From contig JADCRD010000001.1 in NCBI GenBank assembly GCA_014946745.1, positions 1,360,427 through 1,424,426 on the forward strand: a stretch of DNA of 64,000 bases, written 5' to 3'. The position numbers and the translations under genes are program-made. The notes beneath the pieces were generated by a model, which saw nothing but the letters and a program-made list of their open reading frames with translations, made no database searches and was not told the origin of the DNA. This document shows positions 23,377-41,302 of the stretch, piece by piece. The stretch comes from Lysobacterales bacterium. GTDB taxonomy: Bacteria; Pseudomonadota; Gammaproteobacteria; Xanthomonadales; Xanthomonadaceae. Within the stretch, counting starts at the first letter, position 1. Every line of letters begins with the position of its first letter.

Positions 23377-26066
<2,690 letters not shown>

Positions 26067-26070
<4 letters not shown>

Positions 26071-27188: not shown

Positions 27189-27435
27189 TGCGTGGTCTTC
27201 CTTGGCAGCGCCTGGGGTGGGCGGGCGTTCGGGGGTTCGGGGAGGCGACGATGCGATGCGGCGCACGCGACGTCTCGGATTCGGTGGTGGGCGGCTTGGG
27301 TCGCTACTGGAAAACGGGCGGTGCGGCGTTGTGCGCGCTCCATCGGGAGCGGGGCGGTACTGAGCTCACGGTGGGCCGGGGCCCAGCCTATGCGGCACGG
27401 ATCGCGTGGTCCGGCAGGGCATCGCGCGCAGGCCC

Positions 27436-28362
27436 TCAGGCCTTGTGGGCGATCAGGGCGATGACCTCGAAGTGCGGAGGCCGGCGCTCTCGGGTCACCG
27501 TGCTCGCGGTCTGCACAGCGAGGCCCGCCTTCTCGGCAAAGCGCTTCAATTCCCTCTCGCTGAAGCCGAGATTGACGTGGCCATAGGGCGCCACCGCGGC
27601 CTGGTGTTCGTGCTTGGCCAGGCTGGTCAGCAGCAGCCGACCGCCCGGGCGCAGCACGCGACCGGCTTCCGCCACGGCCTTCGCCGGCTTGTCGGCGTAG
27701 GTGAGCGCGTGCATCAGCACCACCAGATCGAAGCTGGCTTCAGGGTAGGGCAGGGCGTGCATGTCGCCTTCAACGACTTCAACGTTCGCGTGGCGCGACA
27801 GGCGCTCGGTGGCGGCGCTCACGACCCGCGCGCTGGAGTCGATGCAGACATAGCGCTGGGCGTGCGGCGCCACCAGCTCGGCCAGCACACCATCGCCGGA
27901 GGCGATGTCGAGCACCTCGCCGGGGCGCATCAGCGGCAGCGCCGAGCGCGCCAGCGCTTCCCAGGTGCGGCCCGGCGAATAGTGGCGTTCCATGTCGCCG
28001 GCCACGGTGTCCGCCCAGTTCTCCTCGGCCGCGCGCAGGGCCAGAACTTCCGGCAGGCGTTCGGCGTCCTGTCGCAGCAGCGGATCGTCGGCGCCGCGGC
28101 ACAGGGTGTCCCACAGCGCGCGCTCTGCCGGCGGCAGAGCCTCGTTGAAGCGGTAGTAGGCCGAGACGCCAGCGCGGCGATCCAGGACCAGCTCGGCCTC
28201 CTTCAGCTTGGCGAGGTGGGTAGAGACCCGCGGCTGCGCAAGCATCGTGATCGAGGCCAGCTCGGCCACGGTCAGCTCCTCGCGCTCCAGCAGCGCCAGC
28301 AGCCGCACGCGCGTGGCGTCCGCGAGCACGCGCAGGCAGGCCGACCAGGCATTCAGATCCAT
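27436..28362 (-). CDS. sahR: ArsR-family HTH fused to SAM-dependent methyltransferase domain, SahR-like regulator of methionine/SAM-cycle genes
   Basis: ArsR HTH (CLRVLADATRVRLLALLEREELTVAELASIT) plus class I MTase fold (VLDIASGDGVLAE). Adjacent to metH as for SahR. Start at ATG 28362. Confidence 0.65.
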   Translation of the reverse strand: MDLNAWSACLRVLADATRVRLLALLEREELTVAELASITMLAQPRVSTHLAKLKEAELVLDRRAGVSAYYRFNEALPPAERALWDTLCRGADDPLLRQDAERLPEVLALRAAEENWADTVAGDMERHYSPGRTWEALARSALPLMRPGEVLDIASGDGVLAELVAPHAQRYVCIDSSARVVSAATERLSRHANVEVVEGDMHALPYPEASFDLVVLMHALTYADKPAKAVAEAGRVLRPGGRLLLTSLAKHEHQAAVAPYGHVNLGFSERELKRFAEKAGLAVQTASTVTRERRPPHFEVIALIAHKA

Positions 28363-28685
28363 GTGTATCGCTTCATCGGGATTCAAAGATGAAGCAGGGT
28401 AGGCAGGGGCTTGGGGTGCGTCAAGCTTTCGCGGGCTCGGCGAATTCGAAGTTGCGGAGCGTGCGCTGCTGCACGGAGCGGGCGATCGCCGTGGCTGCAA
28501 GGCGCGGGGCGGCTTGGCTCCGCACGAGTCGCGCATCCCGGTTCTTGTAGGAGCGAGCTTGCTCGCGACCAGTGCCATGTGCGGGTCGAAGGCTGCGGTC
28601 GCCTGCGAGCAGGCTCCTGCACAGATCAGCAGCAGAAGCAGCCAGCGTGCGTATTCCGTCGACCGGCATGCCGTCGCACCACCCC

Positions 28686-28714
28686 TCATCCCCCAATCCC
28701 CCAATCCCCAATCC
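28686..28714. repeat. heptamer/octamer microsatellite (CAATCCC(C))x4
   Basis: CATCCCCCAATCCCCCAATCCCCAATCCC in the divergent sahR / acyl-CoA dehydrogenase intergenic region. Confidence 0.85.
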
Positions 28715-28830: not shown

Positions 28831-29994
<1,164 letters not shown>

Positions 29995-30017
29995 GTCCGC
30001 GACGTCCGCGTCAGCCG

Positions 30018-30050
30018 AGAACGCGCCGGAACGATCCGGCGCGTTTCCGT
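30018..30050 (+). terminator. probable rho-independent terminator after the acyl-CoA dehydrogenase gene
   Basis: AACGCGCCGGAacgaTCCGGCGCGTT stem followed by TCCGTGTC (weak U-tract). Confidence 0.5.
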
Positions 30051-30200
30051 GTCAGCGTGGCGCACCCGCTGCGGGCCTTCCAAAGTCATTGCGGCCGCGT
30101 ATCCTGCGGGCTCCGCATCGCTTGTCACAGCGCCTGGGCGCGTGCGTCGGGTGCGGCGTGATCCACCTGCTTGGGGCGGTGGGCTGGACCGGGGGCTTGC

Positions 30201-30815
30201 GTGGACCGCTTCTTCGACATCGCACTGTCGTTTCCAACGCTGATCCTGAGCCTGCTGCTGCTGGTTGCGGTGGGCTACTGGCTGCTGACCCTTCTTGGCC
30301 TGCTGGACCTTGAGGTGCTCGACCTGCCCGAGGTGGCCGACAGCGAGGGCTTGATGGGCGTTTTTTCGGGCCTGCTGCTCAAGTGCCGCCTGCAAGGGCT
30401 GCCCGTTGCCCTGATCTACTCCGCGGTCGTGCTGATCGCCTGGGTCTTTGTCTATCTGGCCAGCGCTCTGCTGTTCGGCCTCATCGACAGCGCAGCGCTC
30501 CGCCTCGCCGTCGGCGCTGTGGCCATTCCGTTCGCAGTGTTCTTGGCGCTGCCGTTCGCGGGGCTGGCCCTGCAGCCCTTGAAGGGGCTGTTTGCACGCG
30601 TCGAAGGTCGCAAGGCCGAATCGCTGCTGGGCGAGATCGTCCGCATCCGCTCGGCGGAAGCCACTGCGCACGCCGGCACCGCTGACTACGACGACGGCGC
30701 GGCCGGGCTGATTCTGCAGGTGCGCGCAGCCGGTACGATTCTGAAACGCGGTGAGCGGGCCTTGATCGTTGAATACTTGGAGGGCCAGAACGCCTATCGC
30801 GTCACGCCGCCCTGA
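30201..30815 (+). CDS. NfeD/YqiJ-like membrane protein (N-terminal TM helices + C-terminal OB-fold-like domain), flotillin partner
   Basis: Multi-TM N-terminus (LILSLLLLVAVGYWLLTLLGLL...). C-terminal GEIVRIRSAE...GLILQVRAAGTILKRGERALIVEYLEGQNAYRVTP resembles the NfeD OB domain. Immediately upstream of an SPFH/flotillin gene. The GTG start at 30201 is tentative; an ATG lies at 30171. Confidence 0.6.
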   Translation: MDRFFDIALSFPTLILSLLLLVAVGYWLLTLLGLLDLEVLDLPEVADSEGLMGVFSGLLLKCRLQGLPVALIYSAVVLIAWVFVYLASALLFGLIDSAALRLAVGAVAIPFAVFLALPFAGLALQPLKGLFARVEGRKAESLLGEIVRIRSAEATAHAGTADYDDGAAGLILQVRAAGTILKRGERALIVEYLEGQNAYRVTPP

Positions 30816-30950
30816 GCCCTGCCACGCGCTCGCGGCCGCCCGCGCATCGCAGCGCCACTCTTGACCTTTCCCGCTGCCCGGAGCGCGTCGCCGGGACTGT
30901 TTTCTGGTCGCTTCACCTTTCGTACCGCTCGCCTCACCCAGGAGCCCCGC

Positions 30951-33050
30951 ATGGACTTTGCAGCCCTTCCCTTCGCCGTTGTCGTCATCGGCGCCGTCAT
31001 CCTTTTTCTGCTCGGCGTCATGGTTCTGTTCAAGGCCTTCTACATCAAGGTGCCGCAGGGCACCGCCTTGATCGTGAACGACCTCTCCTCGACGCCCAAG
31101 GTCCACTTCACCGGCGCCCTGGTGTACCCGGTGATCTACAAGAAGGAGTTCATGCGCATCTCGCTGATCACCCTCGAGGTGGACCGGCGCGGCAAGGACG
31201 GCCTGATCTGTCGCGACAATATGCGCGCCGACATAACCGTGGCCTTCTACCTGCGCGTCAACGAGACCCAGCAGGACGTACTCAAGGTGGCCAAGGCCAT
31301 CGGCGTCGATCGGGCCTCCGACAAGGCGGCGGTCAACGAGCTGTTCAACGCCAAGTTCTCGGAAGCCTTGAAGACGGTCGGCAAGCAGATCGACTTCGTC
31401 AAGCTGTTCGAGAACCGTCAGGAGTTCCGCGACCGCATCGTCGAAGTCATCGGCAATGATCTGAACGGCTATGTGCTTGAGGACGTCGCCATCGACTATC
31501 TGGAGCAGACGCCGAAGGCCTCGCTCGACCCCAGCAATATTCTCGACGCCGAGGGCATCCGCAAGATCACCGAGCTCACTGCCGCGCAGAACGTCATCAC
31601 CAACGAGCTGGAGCGCAACGAAGAGCTGGCGATCACCAAGAAGAACGTCGAGACCAAGGAGGCCCTGCTTGCGCTGGCGCGTCAGCAGGCCGATGCCGAG
31701 GCCCGTCAGGCGCGCGAGATCGCCACCATCAAGGCGCGCGAAGAAGCCGAGACGATGAAGGTGCAGGAAGAGGAGCGCCTGAAGGCCGAGCAGGCACGCC
31801 TGGCCGCGCAAGAGCAGATCGACATCCGTGACCAGAACCGGATGCGTGAGGTCGAGGTGGCCGAGCAGAACCGCCAGCGCGCAGTGATCATCGAGAAGGA
31901 AAAGGTCGAGCGCGCCCGCGCGCTGGAAGTGGTCTCGCGCGAGCGCGAGGTCGAGCTGCAGCGCATCGAGAAAGAAAAGGCCCTGGAAGAACAGCGCAAG
32001 CTGATCGCCAACGTGGTGCGCGAGCGCATCGCGGTCGACAAGACGGTGGCGCAGGAAGAAGAGCGCATCAAGGAAGTGCGCGAGATCTCCGAGGCCGAAC
32101 GCGCCAAGCAGGTCGCGATTCTGGACGCCCAGGCCCGTGCCGAAGAAGAGCTGGTCAAGCAGGTCAAGCAGGCCGAAGCCGATGAGAGCAAGGCCAAGCA
32201 CAAGGCCGTCGAGATCACCACGCTGGCGCAGGCGGAACTGGAAGCCGCTGGCAAGCAATCCGAGGCCAAGCGCAAGCTGGCCGAAGGCATCGAAGCCGAG
32301 CGCGCGGCGCCGGGTCTCGCCGATGCGCGCGTGCGCGAAGTGAATGCGGCGGCGCTGGAGAAGGAAGGCCTGGCGCAAGCCAAGGTCGTGGCCGAAAAGC
32401 TGATGGCGGAAGCGCGCGGCGAGCAGGAGAAGGGCTTCGCACACGCGCGGGTCGTCGAGGCGCACGCCGATGCCAAGCAGAAGGAAGGCCTGGCCGAGGC
32501 CAAGGTGCTGGAAGAAAAGCTCGGCGCACAGGCGCGCGGCGAGGAGCAGATCGGCGGAGCCAAGGCCGTCGCTACCCGCGAGATCGGTCTGTCGGAAGCC
32601 GAGGTGTTGAAGCGTCGCTACGAGTCGGAGGCCGAGGGTCTGGTCAAGAAGTTCGAGGCGCTGTCGGGCCTGTCCGACTCCGCGCGGGCGCACGAAGAGT
32701 TCCGCATGAAGCTGGAGAAGAACTTCGAGCAGGCCATGGCCGCGATCGAGGCCAACAAGGACATCGCTCGCGAGCAGGCCGACGTGCTGGCGGCAGCGCT
32801 GTCCAAGGCCAAGGTCGACATCGTCGGCGGCGGCGGCGAGTTCTTCGAGACCTTCGCCAAGGCGCTCAGCGTCGGCAAGGCGATCGAGGGCGCGGTCGGC
32901 AAAAGCCCGGTGGTTCAGGACGTGCTGTCGAAGTTTCTGGGCGGTGGGGTGACGGCGGGGAAGGTGGCGGCGTTGAAGGCGGCGGAGGCTTCGACTTCGC
33001 AAAGCGCTGATGCTTCCACTGCTGCCGACTCCCCGGAGCCGAGGGCCTAG
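30951..33050 (+). CDS. flotillin-like SPFH/band-7 protein (YqiK/FloT family) with a long C-terminal EA-rich coiled coil
   Basis: N-terminal TM (AALPFAVVVIGAVILFLLGVMVLF). SPFH core (KVPQGTALIVNDLSSTPKVHFTGALVYPVIYKKEFMRISLITLEVD...CRDNMRADITVAFYLRV). ~400 aa of heptad-repeat EA/K-rich sequence with internal tandem repeats (KEGLAQAKVVAEKLMAEARGE / KEGLAEAKVLEEKLGAQARGE). Confidence 0.85.
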   Translation: MDFAALPFAVVVIGAVILFLLGVMVLFKAFYIKVPQGTALIVNDLSSTPKVHFTGALVYPVIYKKEFMRISLITLEVDRRGKDGLICRDNMRADITVAFYLRVNETQQDVLKVAKAIGVDRASDKAAVNELFNAKFSEALKTVGKQIDFVKLFENRQEFRDRIVEVIGNDLNGYVLEDVAIDYLEQTPKASLDPSNILDAEGIRKITELTAAQNVITNELERNEELAITKKNVETKEALLALARQQADAEARQAREIATIKAREEAETMKVQEEERLKAEQARLAAQEQIDIRDQNRMREVEVAEQNRQRAVIIEKEKVERARALEVVSREREVELQRIEKEKALEEQRKLIANVVRERIAVDKTVAQEEERIKEVREISEAERAKQVAILDAQARAEEELVKQVKQAEADESKAKHKAVEITTLAQAELEAAGKQSEAKRKLAEGIEAERAAPGLADARVREVNAAALEKEGLAQAKVVAEKLMAEARGEQEKGFAHARVVEAHADAKQKEGLAEAKVLEEKLGAQARGEEQIGGAKAVATREIGLSEAEVLKRRYESEAEGLVKKFEALSGLSDSARAHEEFRMKLEKNFEQAMAAIEANKDIAREQADVLAAALSKAKVDIVGGGGEFFETFAKALSVGKAIEGAVGKSPVVQDVLSKFLGGGVTAGKVAALKAAEASTSQSADASTAADSPEPRA

Positions 33051-33058
33051 CTTCCAGA

Positions 33059-33096
33059 GCCCCTCTCCCACCGGGAGAGGGGTTGGGGTGAGGGGC
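33059..33096. repeat. REP-like palindromic element, copy A
   Basis: GCCCCTCTCCCACCGGGAGAGGGGTTGGGGTGAGGGGC has an internal hairpin CCCCTCTCCC-accg-GGGAGAGGGG. Confidence 0.8.
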
Positions 33097-33181
33097 AGTG
33101 CATGGCGTTCTCTATCGGCGTTCGATGCAGCGCTCTGCAGCCGAAGCATGCTGTCTCGGCGTTGAGGCTGGTGCACGTCCA

Positions 33182-33219
33182 GCCCCTCACCCCAACCCCT
33201 CTCCCGTTGGGAGAGAGGC
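33182..33219. repeat. REP-like palindromic element, copy B (inverted relative to copy A)
   Basis: GCCCCTCACCCCAACCCCTCTCCCGTTGGGAGAGAGGC is near-identical to the reverse complement of copy A (3 mismatches). The two copies bracket an 85-bp spacer. Confidence 0.8.
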
Positions 33220-33277
33220 TTGAAGCGCGCTCCGGGCTTTGGCAAGGCGCGCGTCCCCCGCCTTACAGGTTGACCTC

Positions 33278-36200
33278 ATGACCACACCCGAATCCCTCGT
33301 AGACCAGGCCGTCGCCGAAGGCGGCGCCTATGAAGTGCTGCGCGCGCGCTTGCTGGAGCAGGGCGGGCGTCTGCGTGGCCTCGCCGAAGGGCTGAATCGC
33401 CAGCGGCTGGACGAGTTCGGCAGCAGCGAGCTCAAGATCATCGGCCGCCTGCGCGTGCGCACCGAGCACAATGCGGTGGCGCGCGACCTCGTACGGGTCG
33501 GCGACTACCTGCTGTTCGGCTACAACGTGTTCCTGGGCCTGAAGCGCGAGACCCAGATCAGCGATGTGTTCGCGCTGTATCGCCTGGTGGAGGCGGAAGG
33601 TGGGTTCGACGTCGAGCCGGTCGAGCTTGCCAGCAGCTTCCTGGGCGGACAGAGCTTCGTGCAGGATTTCCGCGAGCTGTACGCCTACTACAAGAACACC
33701 CGCCTGCTGCAGCTGGTGACGCGCGATGGCCTGCTGCTGGCGGCGTTCCAGATCGGCGAGCGCCTGTCGGACGTGCGCGTGTTCCGCTTCAGCGTCTCGC
33801 CCGCCGGCGAGGTGCGTTATATCGACAACCGCGGCGAGCGCGACATCGCGCTGCCGCCGATCCATGACTTCGAGTGGACGCGCTGCGGCCGCGAGCACGT
33901 GGTCGAGGGCCGCTTTCCGCACATGAACGTGCTGGATCAGGTCTTTGTCGAGACCATCGGCGGCGACCTCACGATCAAGATCGAGAACAACACCGAGGAC
34001 GGCCTCGGCATCTACCGCGAGGCGGTCGATGACGCGACGCAGAGTATCGACGATGCCCGCATCGACTACGCGCGCGTCGGCGACCTGATCCTGCTGCGCG
34101 TGCAGCCCTACCGTGAGGAAGTGGTTCGCCACTTCGTCTACAGCCTGGTGGCGCGCAAGGTCTACCGCATCGATTCGATCGGGCAGAGCTGCGTGCAGCT
34201 GCCTGAGGACCACGGCATCGTCTATCCCGGCGGCTACGTGCTGCAGAACGGCGAGCAGCGCAGCTTCGAGCGCAGCATGCAGGGCATGCGCTTCAAGCGC
34301 AGCCTGCGCTCGCCGAACGGCGAAGACGTGCTGTTCATCTTCTACGAGCCGGAGAGCGGGGCGAAGGCGCTGTTCACCTACAACCTCATCGAGCGGCGCT
34401 TGGCGACGCCGCTGTTCGGTCACGGCTATGCGCGGCTGGAGGACGGCCGCTTCGTGCTGTTCTCGGTGGACAGCCACGAGCCCACGCGCGTGCATCCGAT
34501 GCAGGTCTGGCAGACGCCGTTCTGGAGCGAGGAGTTCGCCGCCGCCAAGCCGCCGGCAACGAGCTTCATGGGCCGCATCGGCAATGCCGAGCTGGTGCGC
34601 GGTATCTCGGATCTGCTCTCGCTGGTGCGCGAGATTTCCAGCGAGGAAGTCAGCGCCACCCGCTACAGCCTGCTGAGCCAGAACAGCCGGCGCCTGTTCG
34701 ATCTGCACCACTGGCTCGACAGCGCCGAATGCGCGGGTGTGGCGCCGCTGGTGCGCGAGATTGCTGGCACCGCTGAGTCCGTGCTGGATGAGTTCGAGAA
34801 AGTCGAGAGCATCCGCGCGCAGAGCGAGCGCAGTCTGCGCGAGGCGCGCAGCGCGCAGGGCGAGCTGCTGGCGCGGGCCCGGCCCGAGCGCTGCGAGAGC
34901 GTCAACGACTACGTCGACGGACTGTCCGGCCTGCAGGCCCAGCGCGGCCGCCTGCTGGCGCTGCGCGAGGCGCGCTACATGGACGTGGCCGCGGTCGATG
35001 CGCTCGAAGCCGAAGTCGTCGAAGCGCAGGCGCGTTTGTCGTCCGCGACCGGCGAGTTCCTCGCGTCGGCCGCCGCGCTGAAGCCGCTCGATCAGCGCCT
35101 GCGCGCGCTCGATGGCGAGGCCGGCAAGGCCCAGGGTGTGGCCCAGCTGAAGGCGCCGCTGGAGGGCATGGCCCAGCTCTCGCTGGATCTGGACCTGCTT
35201 TCGAACCTGTTGGCCGGGCTGCCGATCGAGGACGCGCAGCAGCGCACCCAGGTGGTCGAGACGATCTCCGAGCTGTACGCGCGGCTGAACCAGGCCCGTG
35301 CCCGCGCTGAGCAGCAGCGCAAGGCGCTGGGCACTCGCGAGGCAGTGGCCCAGTTCGGCGCGCAGTTCGCGCTGTTTGGGCAGAGTCTTGCCTCGGCGCT
35401 GAGCCTGTCGACCGACCCCGAGCGCAGCGAGGAGCAGCTGGCGCGCGTGCTGCTGCAGCTCGAAGAACTCGAAAGCCGCTTCGGCGAGCATGAGCAGTTT
35501 CTGCAGGACATCCTGGCCAAGCGCGAGGAGGTGCTGGAGACCTTCGAGAGCCATCGCCAGGCGCTGCTGGACGAGCGTCAGCGTCGCGCGCAGGGGCTGC
35601 ACGAAGCCGCGCTGCGCATCTTCGAAGGCCTTGCACGGCGCACCGAGCGGCTGCAAGCGGTCGAGGCCCTGCACGCCTTCTTCGCTGGCGATGCGCTGAT
35701 TCTCAAGCTGCGGGAGTTGGCAGCGCGCCTGCGCGAGCTGCGCGACAGCGTCAAGGCCGACGACATCGAAGCCCGCATCAAGGCGGCGCGTGATGCCGCC
35801 CTGCGCGGCCAGCGCGATCGCAGCGAGCTGTTCGAGGACGGCGGCAACACCATCAAGCTGGGCCCGCGGCACCGCTTCAGCGTCAACACCCAGGCGCTGG
35901 ATCTGACAATGCTGCCCAGAGGCGGCGAGCTCTGCCTGCATCTCACCGGCACCGAGTACTACGAGCCGCTTGGCGATGAACAGCTGACCCAACTGCGCGC
36001 GTTTGCCGAGCACACGCTGGAGTCGGAGTCTGCCCACGTCTGCCGCGCCGAGTACCTCGCCGCCAGCCTGTTCGAGGCCGCGCGCGCCGCCAGCGAAGCT
36101 CAGAGTCTCGCGACGCTGCAGGCTGAGCTCGGGAATCTCGATGCGCTGTCGAAGCGCCTGCGCGAGTTCACTGCTTCGCGCTACCGCGAGGGCTACGAGA

Positions 36201-38476
36201 AGGGCATCCACGATACGGATGCCGCGCGCATTCTCGCCGCCTGGCTGCCGTTGCGGCAGGCCGCCGGCCACTTGATCCATGCGCCGGCAGCACGCGCCCT
36301 GGCGGCACTCGCCTGGCAGGCACAGGCCAACAGCGACAGCGCCAGCCTCTGGCCGCTGCGCGCGCGGCAAGCGCGGCAGCTGATCGAGACTTTGGGCCAC
36401 GCCGCCGCCGGCGAGCGCTTGATGGCCGAGATCGCGCGCGAGGTCGAGCGCTTTCGCGCGGCAGCGGCCATCGAACTCGATGCCACGCTGAGCAGCGACG
36501 CCGCGCGCTATCTGGTGGAGGTGCTGGGCGAGGAGCATCCGCAGTTCCTGTTCACTGCGGCCGCGCGACGCCTTGTGCAAGGCTTGAAGGAGCGATTGGC
36601 CACCGGCCATCGCTGGGAGGATCTGCAGGCCGCCGCGGAGGCGCTGGCGGCGCGACCGGGCGAGGCCCTGGGGCTGTGGCTGCAGTGGTTCGAAGCCCTG
36701 TGCGCCGAACCCGCCTTCGCCGAGCTGGCCCAGCATGCCATCGAGGCCGCCGCACTCATGCGCGTGGAGGCTCAGCTGCCCACGCGGATCAGCGAAGCCG
36801 ATCTTGCTGTAGAGATCAGCGGCCTGCTGAGCAGCCATCCTCGTATCGAGCAGGGCAGGCTGCGCCTGCGCATCGACGACTTCGAGGCGCGCCTGCGCCG
36901 CCATCGCGAGCAGCATCTGCCCGGCTTGCGTGCCTTCCAGGCGCGTCGACACGCGCTGATCGAGGAAGGCCGCGCGCGCCTGCGATTGGCCGAGTTCAAG
37001 CCGCGGCCCCTGACCTCGTTCGTGCGCAACAAGCTGATCAGCGAGGTCTACCTGCCCATCATCGGTGACAACCTCGCCAAGCAGATGGGCACGGTGGGCG
37101 AGGGCAAGCGCTCGGACCTGATGGGCCTGCTGATGCTGATCAGCCCACCCGGCTACGGCAAAACCACGTTGATGGAGTACGTGGCGCACGCGCTGGGTCT
37201 GGTCTTCATGAAGATCAACGGGCCTTCGCTGGGCCACGAAGTGCGCTCGCTGGATCCGACCCAGGCGCCCGATGCAGGAGCGCGGCAAGAGCTGGAGAAG
37301 CTCAATCTCGCGCTGGAGATGGGCAGCAACGTGATGCTGTACGTCGACGACATCCAGCACACGCATCCGGAGTTCCTGCAGAAGTTCATCTCGCTCTGCG
37401 ACGGCACCCGCCGCATCGAGGGTGTCTGGCAAGGCCGCAGCTGCACCTATGACATGCGCGGCAAGAAGTTTTGCGTGGTCATGGCGGGCAACCCGTACAC
37501 GGAAAGCGGCGAGGTCTTCAAGATCCCGGACATGCTGGCCAACCGCGCCGACGTCTACAACCTGGGCGAGGTGCTGGGCGGCAAGGAGGACGCGTTCCTC
37601 TTGAGCTACGTCGAGAACTCCCTGACCGCGCAGCCGGTGCTCGCGCCGCTGGCGACCCGTGATCTCAACGACCTCTACAAACTGGTCGAACGCGCGCAGG
37701 GTCGCGAGTTCTCGGCGAACGCGCTCAGCCACAGCTATTCGACGGCTGAGCTCAACGAGCTCACGGCCGTGCTGAAGAACCTGCTGGCGGTGCGCGACAT
37801 CGTCTACCGGGTCAACCAGGCCTACATCGCCAGCGCCGCCCAGGCCGAGGCCTACCGCACCGAGCCGCCCTTCAAGCTGCAGGGCAGCTACCGCAACATG
37901 AACAAGCTGGCCGAGAAGATCTCCTCGGTGATGAATGCAGTCGAGCTGCAGAAGCTCATCGACGACCACTACCTCGGCGAGTCGCAGCTGCTGACCGGCG
38001 GCGCCGAGGAGAACCTGCTCAAGCTGGCTGAGATCCGCGGCACCCTGGATTCCGCGCGTGCAGAACGCTGGCAGGCGATCAAGCAGGGCTTCCAGCGCAA
38101 CAAGGCGCTGGGCGGCGCCGACAGCGACACCGGCACGCGGGTGATCGCGCAGCTGCATGATCTCGTTGCCAGCGTGCAGTCGCTCGGCGCGCAGGCCAGC
38201 GCAGTCAAGCCCGCGCAGAGCGCGCCCGAACTGATCCAGCTGCTGCAGCGCATCCTCGACGAGCAGGTGCTGAATCGCACCTTCTCGCGCGATACCGCTG
38301 CCGATGCCGCGATGTGGCTGGGTGGCCTGCGCAACGCGCTGGACGTGGGCTTCCGTCCTTTGGTGGAAGCGGTGCAGGCGCGCCAGCAGGGCAGCGAGGC
38401 CGAGCGTGAGCAGCTGGCCTCGCTTGTCCAGCAGGTGCAGGCGCTCAACAGAATTCTGGCGGCGCGGAAAAGCTGA
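33278..38476 (+). CDS. giant (1732 aa) AAA+ ATPase: N-terminal ~600-aa beta-rich domain, ~650-aa alpha-helical/coiled-coil region, C-terminal AAA_5/MoxR-like ATPase module and helical tail
   Basis: Walker A LISPPGYGKTTL (nt ~37141-37170, about residue 1290). Walker B VMLYVDDIQH. Sensor/Arg-finger region CVVMAGNPYTESGEVFKIPDMLANRADVYNL typical of AAA_5 (MoxR/McrB/dynein-like) modules. GC3-rich codon usage on the + strand. The antisense 1757-aa ORF is judged an artefact. Confidence 0.8.
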   Translation: MTTPESLVDQAVAEGGAYEVLRARLLEQGGRLRGLAEGLNRQRLDEFGSSELKIIGRLRVRTEHNAVARDLVRVGDYLLFGYNVFLGLKRETQISDVFALYRLVEAEGGFDVEPVELASSFLGGQSFVQDFRELYAYYKNTRLLQLVTRDGLLLAAFQIGERLSDVRVFRFSVSPAGEVRYIDNRGERDIALPPIHDFEWTRCGREHVVEGRFPHMNVLDQVFVETIGGDLTIKIENNTEDGLGIYREAVDDATQSIDDARIDYARVGDLILLRVQPYREEVVRHFVYSLVARKVYRIDSIGQSCVQLPEDHGIVYPGGYVLQNGEQRSFERSMQGMRFKRSLRSPNGEDVLFIFYEPESGAKALFTYNLIERRLATPLFGHGYARLEDGRFVLFSVDSHEPTRVHPMQVWQTPFWSEEFAAAKPPATSFMGRIGNAELVRGISDLLSLVREISSEEVSATRYSLLSQNSRRLFDLHHWLDSAECAGVAPLVREIAGTAESVLDEFEKVESIRAQSERSLREARSAQGELLARARPERCESVNDYVDGLSGLQAQRGRLLALREARYMDVAAVDALEAEVVEAQARLSSATGEFLASAAALKPLDQRLRALDGEAGKAQGVAQLKAPLEGMAQLSLDLDLLSNLLAGLPIEDAQQRTQVVETISELYARLNQARARAEQQRKALGTREAVAQFGAQFALFGQSLASALSLSTDPERSEEQLARVLLQLEELESRFGEHEQFLQDILAKREEVLETFESHRQALLDERQRRAQGLHEAALRIFEGLARRTERLQAVEALHAFFAGDALILKLRELAARLRELRDSVKADDIEARIKAARDAALRGQRDRSELFEDGGNTIKLGPRHRFSVNTQALDLTMLPRGGELCLHLTGTEYYEPLGDEQLTQLRAFAEHTLESESAHVCRAEYLAASLFEAARAASEAQSLATLQAELGNLDALSKRLREFTASRYREGYEKGIHDTDAARILAAWLPLRQAAGHLIHAPAARALAALAWQAQANSDSASLWPLRARQARQLIETLGHAAAGERLMAEIAREVERFRAAAAIELDATLSSDAARYLVEVLGEEHPQFLFTAAARRLVQGLKERLATGHRWEDLQAAAEALAARPGEALGLWLQWFEALCAEPAFAELAQHAIEAAALMRVEAQLPTRISEADLAVEISGLLSSHPRIEQGRLRLRIDDFEARLRRHREQHLPGLRAFQARRHALIEEGRARLRLAEFKPRPLTSFVRNKLISEVYLPIIGDNLAKQMGTVGEGKRSDLMGLLMLISPPGYGKTTLMEYVAHALGLVFMKINGPSLGHEVRSLDPTQAPDAGARQELEKLNLALEMGSNVMLYVDDIQHTHPEFLQKFISLCDGTRRIEGVWQGRSCTYDMRGKKFCVVMAGNPYTESGEVFKIPDMLANRADVYNLGEVLGGKEDAFLLSYVENSLTAQPVLAPLATRDLNDLYKLVERAQGREFSANALSHSYSTAELNELTAVLKNLLAVRDIVYRVNQAYIASAAQAEAYRTEPPFKLQGSYRNMNKLAEKISSVMNAVELQKLIDDHYLGESQLLTGGAEENLLKLAEIRGTLDSARAERWQAIKQGFQRNKALGGADSDTGTRVIAQLHDLVASVQSLGAQASAVKPAQSAPELIQLLQRILDEQVLNRTFSRDTAADAAMWLGGLRNALDVGFRPLVEAVQARQQGSEAEREQLASLVQQVQALNRILAARKS

Positions 38477-38594
38477 CGACGGTCCTCGCGGCCGCCCGCG
38501 GCGCGCGATCAGCGTGCGCTTGACGCGCACTTCCACGACGCCTAAGGTGCGCGCGTCGAGGTTCTATCGCTTCATGCAGATGAAGCGATTGGAT

Positions 38595-38800
38595 TAATAG
38601 GGAAGCCGGTGAGGCATGCGCTCGGGTCTGCATTCATTGAGGCCCAGGCTCAGCACAGTCCGGCACTGCCCCGCAGCGGTAATTGGAAACGAACGCCGTC
38701 ATCCGCACTGGTCTTCCAGACCGGGAAGCGACGGCCAGTAGGCCCGCGCATCTGCGCCCGTCCATAAGTCCGAAGACCTGCCTCGACCGGAGAGCGCTGC
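38595..38800 (+). promoter_or_regulatory. cobalamin (B12) riboswitch upstream of metE
   Basis: 5' AATAGGGAAGCCGGTGAG, a central GCCACTG-like element (CCGCACTGGTC...CCGGGAAG) and a B12 box AAGTCCGAAGACCTGCC (38766-38782). Followed by a GGAGAGC-GCT-GCTCTCC hairpin, a possible expression platform, ~200 nt before the metE ATG. A perfect hairpin ATCGCTTCATGCAGATGAAGCGAT (38566-38589) immediately precedes it. Confidence 0.65.
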
Positions 38801-39001
38801 TCTCCGACCGACCCGCGGGCTGTGGGCGCCGCTTGCGCACGCAGTCCGGGTTCGCCCGAGGGGGCGAAGGTCGCACAGCTGCGTTTCGCGCAGGCCCGCA
38901 AGGGTCTGCGGTGCTGTCCGCGTGACTCGGGCAGTGCGTGCTCTCACCCTGGCCGCGGCTGGCCTTCGCTCCTCATTGCCCCGTCATTGAGGAGCCACAC
39001 C

Positions 39002-41302
39002 ATGATGCACATCACCAACCTGGGGTTTCCCCGCATCGGCCGTCGACGCGAGCTCAAGCAGGCCTTGGAGGCCTACTGGAGCGGCGCGTCGGACGCCGCC
39101 ACCCTGCTCGAAAGCGCTCGCGAACTGCGCCTGCGTCACTGGCAACTGCAAGCGGAGGCCGGCGTGCGCAGTCTGCCGGTCGGCGACTTCTCGCTCTATG
39201 ACCATGTCCTCGACGCGGCGCTGCTGTTCGATGCCGTGCCGGACAGCCATCGCGCCCTCTACGAAGCCGACCCGCTGCTCGGCTACTTCGCGCTCGCCCG
39301 GGGTCTGCAGCGTGACGGCTTCGATCTGCGTGCGCTGGAGATGACCAAGTGGTTCGATACCAACTACCACCACCTGGTGCCCGAGTTGGTCGCGGACCAA
39401 GTGTTTCGGCTGCGCCCCGAGCGCTTGCTCCAGCACTGCAGCGAAGCGCGCGTTCTTGGCCTCGAACTGCGTCCGCAGGTGCTGGGCCCGGTCAGCCTGC
39501 TGCGTCTATCCAAGACCCTGGACGGCAGCGATCCCCTGGCCCTGCTGCCGCGCCTGCTGCCGCTGTACGCCGAGCTGTTCGAGCGGCTCCGCCAGCAGGG
39601 TGTCGACTGGCTGCAGGTGGACGAGCCCTGTCTGGCGCTGGACCTCGACCCCGCGCTGCAGGCGGCCTACGCGCAGGCCTTCGATGCGCTGCGCGCCAGC
39701 CCTGGCCCGCGTCTGCTCCTGAACTGTGGGTTCGGCGATCCGCGGCCCGCGCTGCCCTGGATTCGACGCCTTGCGCCTGCCGCGCTGCATGCGGACCTGT
39801 CCGCAGGGCTTGCGCCGCTGCCGGAGCTCGTCGACGGCGTGGGCGAGGGCATCCTGGTTGCAGGGGTAGTGTCCGGGCGCAGCGTCTGGCGCAGTGATCT
39901 GGATGCGCTGTGTGCGGGCCTGGCCCCGACCTTGAAGGCACGCGGGCCAGAGCGGCTGTGGCTCGCGCCCTCGTGCTCGCTGCTGCACCTGCCCATCAGT
40001 CTGGACGACGAACGGCAGCTGCCCGGGGCGCTGCGCAGCTGGTTGTCCTTCGCGCAGGAGAAGCTCGGCGAGCTGAACCTTTTGGGCCAGGCCCTGAGCG
40101 CGCCGGAAGATGCGCATGCGCTGCTGGCGCCGCAGCGCGCAGCGCTGGCGGATCGTCGAGTTTCCAGCCTGGTACACAGGCGCGACGTGCAGCAACGCGT
40201 GCTGGCACTGGATGTCGAACAGGCGGTCGAGCGCGCGCCCTTGGCGGAGCGTCGGCGCCTGCAGCAGCAGCGGCTGGCGCTGCCCCTGCTGCCCACCACC
40301 ACGATCGGTTCGTTTCCCCAGACCCGTGAGATTCGCCGGCTGCGAGTGGACCTGCGTGCCGGGCGAATCAGCCCAGGCGAGTACGCCGCGCAGCTCGCAG
40401 CCGCGACGGAGGCCTGCGTGCGTGAGCAGGAGTCGATCGGCCTCGATGTGCTGGTGCACGGTGAGTTCGAGCGCAACGACATGGTCGAGTATTTCGGGGA
40501 GCAGCTGGCGGGCTTCGCCTTCACCCGCCACGCTTGGGTGCAGAGTTACGGCTCGCGCTGCGTCAAGCCTCCCATCCTGTTCGGAGACGTCGAGCGCGCG
40601 TCGCCGATGACGGTCGATGCGGCAGTGGCCGCGCAGGCCTTGAGCACGAAGCCGCTGAAGGGCATGCTCACCGGGCCCGTGACCATGCTGCAGTGGTCCT
40701 TTGTTCGCGATGACCAGCCGCGCGAGCAGACCTGCCTGCAGCTGGCGCTGGCGCTGCGCGATGAGGTGGACGATCTGCAGAGCGCCGGCATCGGCATCAT
40801 CCAGATCGATGAGCCTGCGCTTCGCGAGGGGCTGCCACTGCGTCGCGCGGAGCGCGCCGACTACCTGCGCTGGGCGGTGCAGTGCTTCCGCCTGAGCGCA
40901 GGCGTGGCCCGGCCCGAAACCCAGATCCACAGCCACATGTGCTACTCCGAGTTCAACGACATCATCGAGTCGGTCGCGGCGATGGACGCCGATGTGGTGT
41001 CGATCGAAGCCAGTCGTTCGCGGATGGAGCTTCTGGATGCGTTCGTGCAGTTCCGCTATCCGGCGGCGTTGGGTCCCGGCGTGTATGACATTCACTCGCC
41101 GCGCGTGCCGCACGCGGGGGAGATGCGCGAGCTGCTGCAGCGTGCGCTGCAGGTGGTGCCGGCACAGCAGCTGTGGGTCAATCCGGACTGCGGCCTGAAG
41201 ACTCGCGACTGGCCCGAAACGCGCGCTGCACTGGCGGCCATGGTCGCTGTGGCGGCGGCCCTGCGCGTCGACCTCGAACGGTGCGAGACACCTGTGAGCT
41301 GA
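39002..41302 (+). CDS. metE: cobalamin-independent methionine synthase
   Basis: MMHITNLGFPRIGRRRELKQALEAYW...C-terminal HMCYSEF / zinc-ligand motifs (IQIDEPA, HSHMCYS). 766 aa. GAGGAG SD 8 nt upstream. Confidence 0.95.
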   Translation: MMHITNLGFPRIGRRRELKQALEAYWSGASDAATLLESARELRLRHWQLQAEAGVRSLPVGDFSLYDHVLDAALLFDAVPDSHRALYEADPLLGYFALARGLQRDGFDLRALEMTKWFDTNYHHLVPELVADQVFRLRPERLLQHCSEARVLGLELRPQVLGPVSLLRLSKTLDGSDPLALLPRLLPLYAELFERLRQQGVDWLQVDEPCLALDLDPALQAAYAQAFDALRASPGPRLLLNCGFGDPRPALPWIRRLAPAALHADLSAGLAPLPELVDGVGEGILVAGVVSGRSVWRSDLDALCAGLAPTLKARGPERLWLAPSCSLLHLPISLDDERQLPGALRSWLSFAQEKLGELNLLGQALSAPEDAHALLAPQRAALADRRVSSLVHRRDVQQRVLALDVEQAVERAPLAERRRLQQQRLALPLLPTTTIGSFPQTREIRRLRVDLRAGRISPGEYAAQLAAATEACVREQESIGLDVLVHGEFERNDMVEYFGEQLAGFAFTRHAWVQSYGSRCVKPPILFGDVERASPMTVDAAVAAQALSTKPLKGMLTGPVTMLQWSFVRDDQPREQTCLQLALALRDEVDDLQSAGIGIIQIDEPALREGLPLRRAERADYLRWAVQCFRLSAGVARPETQIHSHMCYSEFNDIIESVAAMDADVVSIEASRSRMELLDAFVQFRYPAALGPGVYDIHSPRVPHAGEMRELLQRALQVVPAQQLWVNPDCGLKTRDWPETRAALAAMVAVAAALRVDLERCETPVS

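What the first reader, a model, noticed from the sequence alone, without database searches (positions are those of the whole stretch)
30201..38476. NfeD/YqiJ-like protein, flotillin and a giant 1732-aa AAA+ ATPase form one co-directional module: candidate uncharacterised membrane-microdomain-associated machine
Three same-strand genes lie between the unrelated housekeeping genes acd and metE. (i) An NfeD/YqiJ-type membrane protein. (ii) A 699-aa SPFH/flotillin with a ~400-aa EA-rich coiled coil. (iii) A 1732-aa protein whose C-terminal third is an AAA_5/MoxR-type ATPase (Walker A SPPGYGKT, Walker B LYVDDIQH, NPYTESGEVFKIPDMLANRAD sensor region). This is preceded by a ~600-aa beta-rich domain and ~650 aa of helical/coiled-coil sequence. 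NfeD-flotillin pairing is canonical. The tight linkage to a giant AAA_5 ATPase is not part of the characterised flotillin operon model. It resembles neither known flotillin clients nor canonical defence ATPases (McrB, Old, Lamassu) in architecture. A MoxR/AAA_5 motor on a ~1200-aa scaffold next to a membrane-raft scaffold suggests an ATP-driven assembly/remodelling or membrane-surveillance system. The region carries its own REP-like palindromes (33059-33219) between genes 2 and 3, so the ATPase gene may be separately regulated.
Basis: partly seen in the sequence, partly recalled or inferred. Interest (0 to 1): 0.8.

Follow-up and report, generated by a model that had tools for sequence, protein, structure and literature searches.

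The report
Flotillin–NfeD–giant ATPase stress operon core
These three genes are the Aquimonas copy of a widespread membrane-stress gene set that is already published, in which a flotillin membrane scaffold, its small partner protein and a giant ATP-driven motor always travel together; what the motor does has never been tested.

Summary
Three same-strand genes lie between acd and a cobalamin-riboswitch-controlled metE: a 204-aa 3-TM protein, a 699-aa flotillin and a 1732-aa ATPase. A 163-nt palindromic element sits between genes 2 and 3.

They are orthologues of P. aeruginosa PA3730/PA3729/PA3728 (BacC/BacD/BacE; 38/79/62% identity).

The linkage is real. In 81 of 81 evaluable loci, spread over at least five phyla, the ATPase gene directly follows a flotillin-like gene. 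The loci include family members only 25–28% identical.

The module is not new:
- Ravi et al. 2024 (PMC11237479) described this operon, including the abbreviated three-gene form.
- Wallart et al. 2024 (PMC10948618) showed by RT-PCR that bacABCDEF is one operon.

Added here:
- The N-terminal domain is propeller-like but not canonical.
- Stable RNA hairpins between the flotillin and ATPase genes recur across taxa.
- TelA, rhomboid and PLD genes are frequent add-ons.
- There is no support for the database name "DNA repair ATPase", nor for a mobile defence system.

Most likely mechanism (inferred): a cytoplasmic MoxR-type motor remodels the flotillin/NfeD membrane assembly, or its clients, under envelope stress.

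Interest is moderate to low. The system is known but poorly understood.

The parts
30201..30815 (+). g1: 204-aa membrane protein with three hydrophobic segments and a soluble C-terminal domain of about 75 aa. It is YqiJ/short-NfeD-like and the orthologue of P. aeruginosa PA3730 (BacC).
   Evidence: ORF and translation. TM profile. tblastn with PA3730: 38% identity over 204 aa, E = 3e-31. hhalign of a 30-member family alignment against E. coli YqiJ: probability 94.4%, E = 9e-8. Pfam finds no NfeD or DUF1449 hit in 0/30 members. The PA14 orthologue is called 'short NfeD' in PMC13086221.
30951..33050 (+). g2: 699-aa flotillin (YqiK-type). It has an N-terminal TM anchor, an SPFH region, an EA-rich coiled coil of about 400 aa and a conserved C-terminal VGGG..FF motif. 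It is the orthologue of PA3729 (BacD/PaFlo3).
   Evidence: BLASTP against E. coli YqiK: 29% identity over 450 aa, E = 6e-41. 79% identity to PA3729. The family profile hits the SPFH region of human flotillin-1 (9bq2_B), E = 0.009. Pfam Band_7 is found in only 5/31 family members and not in this protein.
33058..33220 (+). Intercistronic palindromic (REP/MITE-like) element. It has two 39-nt arms, each holding its own CCCTCTCCC-N3-GGGAGAGGG hairpin, and would form a long stem-loop in the mRNA between the flotillin and ATPase genes.
   Evidence: arms 95% complementary. (-141.5 kcal/mol, z = -8.1). (the motif occurs only here in the window, 0 expected). (no T-tract terminator). (arms conserved and centre diverged in the Aquimonas locus L003). 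(structured Flot->AAA spacers recur: 27/56 loci with z < -2, against 3/40 for YqiJ->Flot spacers).
33278..38476 (+). g3: 1732-aa cytoplasmic giant AAA+ ATPase, the orthologue of PA3728 (BacE). Databases name it 'DNA repair ATPase'.
   Evidence: 62% identity to PA3728 over 1699 aa. Family size: 910 clusters at 50% identity; full-length members are mostly about 1600-1930 aa. No TM segment.
33371..34711 (+). g3 residues 32-478: DUF3686 domain. It comprises an N-terminal long helix and a beta-rich, propeller-like domain of about 360 aa (strands at residues 53-412).
35075..35323 (+). g3 residues 600-682: DUF7902, part of the long helical/coiled-coil stalk that spans residues about 418-1240.
   Evidence: Pfam PF25472, E = 1.3e-23. 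Helices in the model.
37025..37627 (+). g3 residues about 1250-1450: MoxR-type AAA+ core. Walker A is SPPGYGKT (K1295). Walker B is an invariant DD (D1357, D1358). Sensor-1 is N1405. The candidate arginine finger is R1423. A beta-hairpin at about 1379-1392 lies before beta4.
37628..38473 (+). g3 residues 1451-1732: helical lid and C-terminal helical extension. The motif EPPFKLQGSYRNMNK is conserved. The last ~130 residues are poorly conserved and modelled with low confidence.

Best explanation
SHOWN. The locus is the Aquimonas (Lysobacterales) orthologue of the BacC-BacD-BacE core of the Psp-like 'Bac' envelope-stress operon of Pseudomonas aeruginosa (PA3730-PA3729-PA3728). It is the abbreviated three-gene form, without the DUF2170/CesT-like chaperone, the PspA homologue or the PLD gene. 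The ATPase gene follows a flotillin-like gene in every evaluable locus, across at least five phyla. The ATPase has no membrane segment and carries a MoxR-type AAA+ module.

INFERRED, step 1. The YqiJ/NfeD-like protein and the YqiK-type flotillin form a membrane-anchored SPFH assembly. The flotillin bulk lies on the cytoplasmic face. This follows from the single N-terminal TM segment, which has Lys residues on its C-terminal side.

INFERRED, step 2. The giant ATPase oligomerises through its AAA+ module. It reaches the flotillin assembly through its helical stalk of about 800 aa and its N-terminal propeller-like head. It uses ATP to assemble, open or disassemble the flotillin scaffold, or to extract client proteins or lipids held in it, when the membrane is stressed. 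Where PspA, TelA, a rhomboid protease or a PLD enzyme are encoded alongside, they act as optional effector arms.

INFERRED, step 3. The stable stem-loop after the flotillin gene probably sets a high flotillin-to-ATPase ratio within one transcript.
For: Orthology to PA3730/PA3729/PA3728.

Published description of the operon class, including the abbreviated form: PMC11237479.

Evidence from P. aeruginosa:
- RT-PCR shows one six-gene operon, and all downstream proteins rise 6-13x in a bacA mutant: PMC10948618.
- PA3731 is induced by osmotic shock: PMC2587700.
- PA3728-PA3732 are induced in all phage-infected samples: PMC12041424.

Census:
- The flotillin-like gene lies directly upstream on the same strand in 78/78 loci that have upstream sequence.
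- The YqiJ-like gene is present in 75/75 such loci.
- The triad is also kept in three members only 25-28% identical.
- The reverse does not hold: E. coli yqiJK has no ATPase gene. The ATPase therefore looks like an accessory of the flotillin pair.

Partners that recur in other loci are all membrane-related:
- PspA with DUF2170 in 39 loci.
- PLD in 16.
- TelA in 14.
- Rhomboid in 10.

Structure and topology:
- MoxR-type AAA+ fold.
- No TM segment in g3, and topology of g2.
- Catalytic motifs are invariant.

Structured Flot->AAA spacers are enriched. Limnobaculum has a canonical terminator-like hairpin at that position.
Against: - No experiment anywhere addresses the ATPase itself.
- No physical interaction was tested or modelled here. 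No multimer prediction was available.
- Deleting the PA14 flotillin (paFlo3) gave only about 20% less biofilm (PMC13086221), so the phenotypes are mild or conditional.
- MoxR ATPases normally work with a VWA-domain partner. None was found in g3 by Pfam or among the recurrent neighbours.
- Walker B is DD rather than DE. This may mean slow hydrolysis, giving a switch rather than a motor.
- The window has no PspA, so the link to the Psp response rests on orthology only.
- The 80 census loci are the best-scoring of at least 573. They are supplemented by only three distant members.
Confidence: 0.6

Rival explanations
1. The true substrate of the ATPase is PspA (ESCRT-III-like) polymers, as Vps4 acts on ESCRT-III. 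The flotillin/NfeD pair would only be the membrane platform that recruits PspA. In this genome the module would work with a PspA encoded elsewhere.
For: A PspA gene with its DUF2170 chaperone directly precedes the triad in 39 of 78 loci. Another PspA lies 6 kb downstream in L083. [quoted passage not shown] A review notes that bacteria lack a known Vps4-like regulator of PspA (PMC7619361).
Confidence: 0.2
2. The module is an anti-phage or anti-competitor defence system. The flotillin/NfeD pair would sense envelope breach. The giant ATPase would transduce the signal to effectors such as the PLD-family enzyme.
For: PA3728-PA3732 are up-regulated in all phage-infected samples (PMC12041424). Giant NTPases and PLD/HKD effectors are common in defence systems (general knowledge). 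A PLD gene follows the ATPase in 16 loci.
Against: PADLOC gives no match apart from a P-loop hit at E = 0.058. There is no match in 50,697 phage records. Only 13 of 72,556 plasmid records match, nearly all large replicons (about 0.4 Mb or more, some of chromosome size), and 10 of them are non-mobilizable. One 90%-identity cluster named P. aeruginosa holds 3222 member sequences, and the flanking genes are housekeeping genes, which fits a core gene rather than a variable island. In most loci, including this window, no effector gene is present.
Confidence: 0.1
3. The giant protein is a DNA repair ATPase, as its database name and the Pfam DUF3686 description state. Its position next to flotillin genes would be incidental.
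For: Only the inherited names: the Pfam description 'ATPase involved in DNA repair' and NCBI's 'DNA repair ATPase'. recJ lies three genes downstream in P. aeruginosa.
Against: The ATPase is coupled to two membrane proteins in 81/81 loci. No DNA-binding, nuclease or helicase domain was found by Pfam, NCBIfam or a PDB profile search covering the full length. No paper in the library mentions DUF3686. recJ is not conserved next to the module outside Pseudomonas. The nearest structural relatives, CbbQ and NorQ, are protein-complex remodellers.
Confidence: 0.03

Closest known systems
P. aeruginosa bacABCDEF operon (PA3732-PA3727 / PA14_16140-16200), the 'Bac' Psp-like system
   Same: g1, g2 and g3 are orthologues of BacC, BacD and BacE (38/79/62% identity). 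Order and strand are the same, and a structured spacer of similar size lies before the ATPase gene.
   Different: The window lacks BacA (DUF2170/CesT-like), BacB (PspA) and BacF (PLD). Its flanks are acd and metE. No convincing sigma-54 site was found.
Operon class described by Ravi et al. [quoted passage not shown]
   Same: The window shows exactly the abbreviated form: the YqiJ-type protein, the flotillin and the AAA+ ATPase.
   Different: There is no difference in kind. This study adds the strictness of the coupling (81/81), the MoxR-type structural assignment, the non-canonical geometry of the propeller-like domain, the TelA and rhomboid partners, and the recurrent intercistronic hairpin.
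E. coli yqiJ-yqiK (YqiJ/DUF1449 + flotillin pair)
   Same: The two-gene order is the same. g2 is homologous to YqiK (E = 6e-41). The g1 family is a remote homologue of YqiJ (hhalign probability 94%).
   Different: E. coli has no ATPase gene downstream. g1 and g2 are too divergent for the Pfam DUF1449 and Band_7 models.
MoxR AAA+ ATPases CbbQ and NorQ (with VWA partners CbbO and NorD)
   Different: CbbQ and NorQ are stand-alone proteins of about 260 aa that pair with a VWA protein. Here the module lies at the C-terminal end of a 1732-aa protein, after about 1240 aa of propeller-like and helical scaffold. No VWA partner was found. Walker B is DD. The partner genes are flotillin and NfeD-like.
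FtsH-HflK/C and Vps4-ESCRT-III (functional analogies only)
   Same: In each case an AAA+ machine is functionally tied to an oligomeric membrane scaffold: an SPFH cage in one case and ESCRT-III/PspA polymers in the other.
   Different: FtsH is membrane-embedded, proteolytic and sits inside the cage. Vps4 belongs to the classical AAA clade. g3 is soluble, has no protease domain and is MoxR-type. No homology is implied.

Membership tests
Bac/Psp-like flotillin-AAA+ operon (Ravi et al. 2024 class; P. aeruginosa bacABCDEF) | A giant AAA+ ATPase with the DUF3686 + DUF7902 + C-terminal AAA+ architecture | tested here: met
   Pfam: PF12458 E = 2e-192, PF25472 E = 1e-23, AAA_5 26.5 bits. 62% identity to PA3728.
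Bac/Psp-like flotillin-AAA+ operon (Ravi et al. 2024 class; P. aeruginosa bacABCDEF) | A flotillin-type protein (TM + band-7 + coiled coil) and a 3TM YqiJ-type protein directly upstream on the same strand | tested here: met
   The same layout is found in 78/78 and 75/75 evaluable loci.
Bac/Psp-like flotillin-AAA+ operon (Ravi et al. 2024 class; P. aeruginosa bacABCDEF) | The CesT/Tir-like (DUF2170) + PspA dyad of the full-length form | tested here: not met
   tblastn with PA3732 and PA3731 finds nothing in the 64-kb window. The published class explicitly includes abbreviated operons without the dyad.
Bac/Psp-like flotillin-AAA+ operon (Ravi et al. 2024 class; P. aeruginosa bacABCDEF) | Co-transcription of the genes and induction by envelope stress | not testable with these tools
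   Shown only for P. aeruginosa (PMC10948618, PMC2587700, PMC12041424). The window has a strong hairpin with no T-tract between g2 and g3.
Flotillin / SPFH (Band 7) family | An SPFH domain detectable by sequence | tested here: met
   Pfam Band_7 is silent for this protein and hits only 5/31 family members. BLASTP against E. coli YqiK gives E = 6e-41 and covers the SPFH region. The family profile hits the SPFH region of human flotillin-1, E = 0.009.
Flotillin / SPFH (Band 7) family | An N-terminal membrane anchor followed by a long EA-rich coiled coil | tested here: met
   A TM segment lies within residues 1-35. Residues 231-620 are 20% Ala and 19% Glu.
Flotillin / SPFH (Band 7) family | Assembly into large ring- or cage-shaped oligomers at the membrane | not testable with these tools
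   No multimer prediction or experiment was available.
NfeD / YqiJ (DUF1449) family | Sequence match to the NfeD or DUF1449/YqiJ models | tested here: inconclusive
   Pfam finds no such hit in 0/30 family members at E <= 0.01. BLASTP against YqiJ finds nothing. hhalign of the diverse family alignment against YqiJ gives probability 94.4%, E = 9e-8, with 131 colinear columns.
NfeD / YqiJ (DUF1449) family | Multi-TM N-terminal part with a C-terminal OB-fold-like beta domain, encoded directly upstream of an SPFH gene | tested here: inconclusive
   The TM profile and gene position are met.
MoxR (AAA_5) AAA+ ATPases | AAA+ core of the MoxR type by sequence and by fold | tested here: met
MoxR (AAA_5) AAA+ ATPases | A cognate VWA/MIDAS-domain partner protein encoded nearby | tested here: not met
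   Pfam finds no VWA domain in g3. None appears among the recurrent neighbour families of 80 loci.
MoxR (AAA_5) AAA+ ATPases | A canonical Walker B hhhhDE | tested here: not met
   The motif is LYVDDIQH. D1357 and D1358 are invariant in 22 members at 32-61% identity.
Known anti-phage defence systems (PADLOC-DB) | A match of any of the three proteins to a defence-system model | tested here: not met
   g1 and g2 have no hit. g3 has only a P-loop match to mad8, E = 0.058.
DNA repair ATPases (as the database name implies) | A DNA-binding, nuclease or helicase domain, or homology to a characterised repair protein | tested here: not met
   Pfam and NCBIfam give only P-loop-level RuvB_N hits below their cut-offs. 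A full-length profile search against PDB finds P-loop matches only. No paper mentions DUF3686.

The most novel reading that the evidence does not exclude
The BacE-type giant MoxR ATPase could be a dedicated ATP-driven assembly/disassembly factor for bacterial flotillin-NfeD cages. It would be the first known energy-consuming regulator of an SPFH scaffold, analogous in logic to Vps4 acting on ESCRT-III. The hairpin after the flotillin gene would fix a high scaffold-to-motor ratio. If so, flotillin microdomain dynamics in bacteria would become directly testable using one gene.
Probability: 0.3. Interest if true: 0.7.

Novelty: already known. Interest (0 to 1): 0.35.

Why it matters
Flotillins and other SPFH proteins are found in all domains of life, yet how their cages are opened, loaded or recycled is not known. 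This family of 1600-1930-aa ATPases occurs in at least 573 sampled species across several phyla. It is next to a flotillin/NfeD pair in every locus that could be evaluated. In P. aeruginosa it belongs to an operon linked to biofilm formation, virulence, osmotic shock and phage infection. It is therefore an obvious but untested candidate for the missing energy-dependent step. The practical point for annotation is that the database name 'DNA repair ATPase' has no support and should not be propagated. For this scan, the locus is a known system rather than a discovery.

Tried and rejected
1. Sigma-54 promoter, as proposed for P. aeruginosa bacA. A TGGCGCACCCGCTGC match lies at 30058-30072, upstream of g1. 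Such two-mismatch matches are fewer in the window than expected by chance (62 against 85). They are also barely enriched upstream of the module: 14/75 loci against about 12% background. Rejected as evidence.

2. Intrinsic terminator between g2 and g3. The scan finds none, because the hairpin has no T-tract.

3. Sequence searches of g2, of the g1 family profile and of the full-length g3 family profile against PDB. They gave nothing, or P-loop matches only.

5. PspA, DUF2170, PLD, YaeQ, TelA and rhomboid homologues were sought in the whole window. None was found.

6. Mobile-element or defence origin. There is no phage match, and there are only 13 plasmid-collection matches, mostly on replicons of about 0.4 Mb or more, some of chromosome size.

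7. The long antisense ORFs over g2 and g3 (1104 and 1757 aa) have no Pfam hit. They are high-GC shadow ORFs.

8. Literature search for a link between MoxR and flotillin or NfeD. The 12 best-ranked of 62 papers holding at least two of the three terms contain no mention of MoxR.

Full report

Yes. The window is high-GC (about 67%). It carries three + strand ORFs at the stated places:
- g1, 30201-30815, 204 aa, GTG start.
- g2, 30951-33050, 699 aa, with an AGGAG 7 nt before the ATG.
- g3, 33278-38476, 1732 aa.

Upstream lies an acyl-CoA dehydrogenase gene and downstream lies metE. metE has its own cobalamin riboswitch at 38542-38799 (100 bits), so the 3' limit of the module is clear.

g1 has three hydrophobic segments and a soluble tail of about 75 aa. 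g2 has one N-terminal TM segment with Lys residues on its C-terminal side, followed by a stretch of about 400 aa that is 20% Ala and 19% Glu. g3 has no TM segment.

The palindromes are real. The arms are 39 nt, at 33058-33096 and 33182-33220, and 95% complementary. The fold is -141.5 kcal/mol with z = -8.1. The core motif occurs nowhere else in the window.

Two corrections are needed:
- The beta-rich domain spans about 360 residues, not 600.
- Neither g1 nor g2 hits any Pfam, NCBIfam or PADLOC model, even at E <= 10 (Pfam; E <= 1 for NCBIfam and PADLOC). Their labels therefore had to be tested.

**2. What the three proteins are**

*g2.* It is a true YqiK-type flotillin.
- BLASTP against E. coli YqiK gives 29% identity over 450 residues, E = 6e-41, starting at the TM/SPFH region.
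- A profile of 31 family members reaches the SPFH region of human flotillin-1 (9bq2_B, E = 0.009).
- Pfam Band_7 sees only 5 of those 31.

*g1.* It evolves fast; a 5.8-billion-protein search found only 70 homologues.
- BLASTP against E. coli YqiJ finds nothing.
- hhalign of a shallow alignment gave only 43% probability.
- A diverse 30-member alignment gives 94.4% probability, E = 9e-8, colinear over 131 columns.
- Pfam's NfeD and DUF1449 models hit 0 of 30 members.
- g1 is therefore a remote YqiJ-type protein. A 2026 paper calls the PA14 orthologue a 'short NfeD' (PMC13086221).

*g3.* It carries DUF3686 (E = 2e-192), DUF7902 and a weak but above-threshold AAA_5 hit. Its closest relatives are from Aquimonas (81-93% identity), which places the window in the Lysobacterales.

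**3. It is the core of a known operon**

The P. aeruginosa homologue of g3 (P0090, 63% identity) sits in this locus: DUF2170 - PspA_IM30 - 213 aa - 688 aa - 1746-aa ATPase - PLDc_2 - YaeQ - RecJ - LasB. That is PA3732 to PA3724.

tblastn shows that the window genes correspond to PA3730, PA3729 and PA3728 (38, 79 and 62% identity). The 64-kb window holds no homologue of PspA, DUF2170, PLD or YaeQ.

The literature already covers this system:
- Macé et al. 2008 named PA3729-PA3732 the biofilm-associated cluster 'bac'. A PA3731 (PspA-like) mutant is defective in biofilm formation, swarming, rhamnolipid production and virulence, and PA3731 is induced by osmotic shock (PMC2587700).
- Wallart et al. 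2024 showed by RT-PCR that six genes, bacA to bacF, form one operon. This includes the junction between the flotillin gene and the ATPase gene (bacE). All five downstream proteins rise 6-13x in a bacA mutant (PMC10948618).
- Ravi et al. 2024 described the operon class by comparative genomics. [quoted passage not shown] They state that abbreviated operons with only the flotillin, the YqiJ-type protein and sometimes the ATPase are widespread (PMC11237479).
- PA3728-PA3732 are up-regulated in phage-infected cells (PMC12041424).
- Deletion of the PA14 flotillin (paFlo3) lowers biofilm by only about 20% (PMC13086221).

**4. How strict is the linkage?**

A scan of one genome per species (185,579 species) found at least 573 genomes that encode a relative. 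The best 80 loci were fetched.

With P. aeruginosa and the window added, the results were:
- A flotillin-like gene lies immediately upstream on the same strand in 78 of 78 loci that have any upstream sequence. The other four contigs begin at the ATPase gene.
- A YqiJ-like gene precedes the flotillin gene in 75 of 75 evaluable loci.

The taxa include Gamma-, Beta- and Zetaproteobacteria, Myxococcota, Acidobacteriota and Actinomycetota. A plasmid-collection search adds Deinococcus, Streptomyces, Vibrio and Hymenobacter.

Because those 80 loci are the closest relatives, three of the most distant family representatives were also looked up (25-28% identity in the N-terminal 700 aa). All three keep the same-strand triad of about 210, 650 and 1630 aa. 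In one, the 651-aa protein hits Pfam Band_7. In another, the two partners were verified directly (E = 3e-51 and hhalign 96%).

The reverse does not hold. E. coli yqiJK has no ATPase gene. The ATPase behaves as an obligate accessory of the flotillin pair.

Variable additions, all membrane-related, are:
- DUF2170 with PspA in 39 loci.
- PLD in 16.
- TelA in 14, with an unknown 250-aa protein in 10.
- A rhomboid protease in 10.

The family is moderately large. It has 910 clusters at 50% identity with E <= 1e-3, and full-length members are mostly about 1600-1930 aa.

**5. Anatomy of the giant ATPase**

*N-terminal part.* An AF2 model of residues 1-700 is confident (pLDDT 87.4, pTM 0.72). It shows a long N-terminal helix (4-47), about 28 strands between residues 53 and 412, and then helices to residue 700.
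- Foldseek against PDB returns only beta-propellers: IFT-A, Ski8, Elp1, the clathrin N-terminal domain, paraoxonase and prolyl oligopeptidase. E-values are 1e-6 to 1e-4 and probability is mostly >= 0.9, but TM-scores are <= 0.36.
- I therefore call the domain propeller-like but not a canonical closed propeller.

*C-terminal part.* The model of residues 1100-1732 (pLDDT 82) has a standard AAA+ alpha/beta core with a beta-hairpin before strand 4.
- There is a clear gap to midasin (13.2), McrB, dynein and the classical clade (about 12).

*Conservation.* In a 22-member alignment at 32-61% identity, these are invariant: Walker A, a DD Walker B (not DE), sensor-1 N1405, R1423 and the motif EPPFKLQGSYR. 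The AAA+ block is by far the most conserved part of the protein.

*What was not found.* No VWA partner, the usual companion of MoxR proteins, was found. No solved structure matches any other part by sequence.

**6. The spacer between flotillin and ATPase genes**

The window's 227-nt spacer consists mostly of the 163-nt palindromic element. The arms are conserved and the centre has diverged in another Aquimonas genome, as expected for a REP/MITE-like element. There is no T-tract.

Across loci the spacer has a median length of 135 nt and is unusually structured:
- Flot->AAA spacers have a median folding z of -1.86, and 27 of 56 have z < -2.
- YqiJ->Flot spacers have a median of -0.08, and 3 of 40 have z < -2.
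- In Limnobaculum the hairpin is a canonical terminator-like stem with a T-run directly after the flotillin stop codon.

Read-through is shown in PA14. This fits partial attenuation or 3' protection of the flotillin message, which would give many scaffold subunits per motor. That is an inference, not a measurement.

**7. Mechanism**

*Shown:* orthology, obligate gene coupling, MoxR-type AAA+ fold, intact nucleotide-binding motifs, a soluble ATPase and membrane-anchored partners.

*Inferred:* the YqiJ/NfeD-like protein and the flotillin build an SPFH assembly on the cytoplasmic face of the inner membrane. The ATPase oligomerises through its AAA+ ring. It reaches the assembly with its long helical stalk and propeller-like head. 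It uses ATP to assemble, open or dismantle the scaffold, or to extract what it holds, during envelope stress. PspA, TelA, rhomboid and PLD would be optional effector arms.

*Rivals:*
- The target is PspA polymers, in the manner of Vps4. This is plausible, but PspA is adjacent in only half of the loci and the fold is not Vps4-like.
- The module is a defence system. PADLOC is silent. Phage records give no match and plasmid matches are rare. The gene sits among housekeeping genes.
- The protein is a DNA repair ATPase. Only the inherited name supports this.

**8. Verdict**

It is already described in the literature, and the window holds its abbreviated three-gene form. Novelty: already known. Interest is moderate to low (0.35). 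The system is widespread and mechanistically unexplored, and the ATPase is a good experimental target, but a specialist would not be surprised by this locus.

Noticed in passing
window 38542-38799 (+): A cobalamin riboswitch (RF00174, 100.3 bits, E = 2e-24) lies directly upstream of metE (38822-41302). It marks the 3' boundary of the module and shows that metE is regulated on its own.
   Followed up: yes
window 29931-33245 (-) and 33263-38536 (-): Very long antisense ORFs of 1104 and 1757 aa mirror g2 and g3. They have no Pfam hit and are shadow ORFs typical of high-GC coding sequence, not genes.
   Followed up: yes
window 26067-27266 (-), 27436-28704 (-), 41548-44655 (+): Neighbouring genes are unrelated to the module. 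They are a homocysteine S-methyltransferase-domain protein, an ArsR-type HTH fused to a SAM methyltransferase, and a Reg_prop/Y_Y_Y/GGDEF diguanylate cyclase. The + strand ORFs at 26049-27464 and 27406-28392 have no Pfam hit and overlap these Pfam-supported minus-strand genes, so they are probably not real genes.
   Followed up: partly
g3 residues 1357-1358 (window 37346-37351): Walker B is DD (LYVDDIQH) rather than the usual AAA+ DE. Both Asp residues are invariant in 22 family members at 32-61% identity. This may indicate slow hydrolysis or switch-like behaviour.
   Followed up: partly
L011:16035-17132, L006:15226-15792, L015:15163-16035, and equivalents: Other genes recur downstream of the ATPase gene in other taxa. 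TelA occurs in 14 loci, mostly Xanthomonadales, often preceded by an unknown protein of about 250 aa (10 loci). A rhomboid-family protease occurs in 10 loci, 9 of them just downstream of the ATPase gene. None is present in the window.
   Followed up: partly
L013:6582-9998 and L037:7956-9998: In Lampropedia and in a Zetaproteobacteria MAG, the flotillin and ATPase genes are separated by 3.4 kb and 2.0 kb. Several Betaproteobacteria and Pseudomonas loci have spacers of 450-970 nt. The content of these insertions was not examined.
   Followed up: no
L012:9770-9802 (+): In Limnobaculum allomyrinae a 13-bp stem followed by ATTTTTTG lies 8 nt after the flotillin stop codon. It is a canonical terminator-like site inside the module, at the position of the window's palindromic element.
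   Followed up: partly
L010:18974-18994 (-) and L028:17150-17170 (-): A related motif, GGGAGAGGG-N-T-N-GGGTGAGGG, occurs at unrelated positions in two Pseudomonas-group loci (Aquipseudomonas alcaligenes and an uncultured Pseudomonas MAG). The arms of the window's element may therefore belong to a broader class of dispersed repeats. Genome-wide copy number could not be checked.
   Followed up: partly
window 30020-30048 (+): Read by eye: a GC-rich inverted repeat (GCGCCGG-aacgat-CCGGCGC) followed by TTTCC lies just after the acd stop codon. It may end the acd transcript before g1. The terminator scan did not call it.
   Followed up: no
L083 (Logan ERR4228849 contig), whole locus: The most distant family member examined sits among several ankyrin-repeat genes, and a PspA_IM30 gene lies 6 kb downstream. 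The organism was not identified.
   Followed up: no
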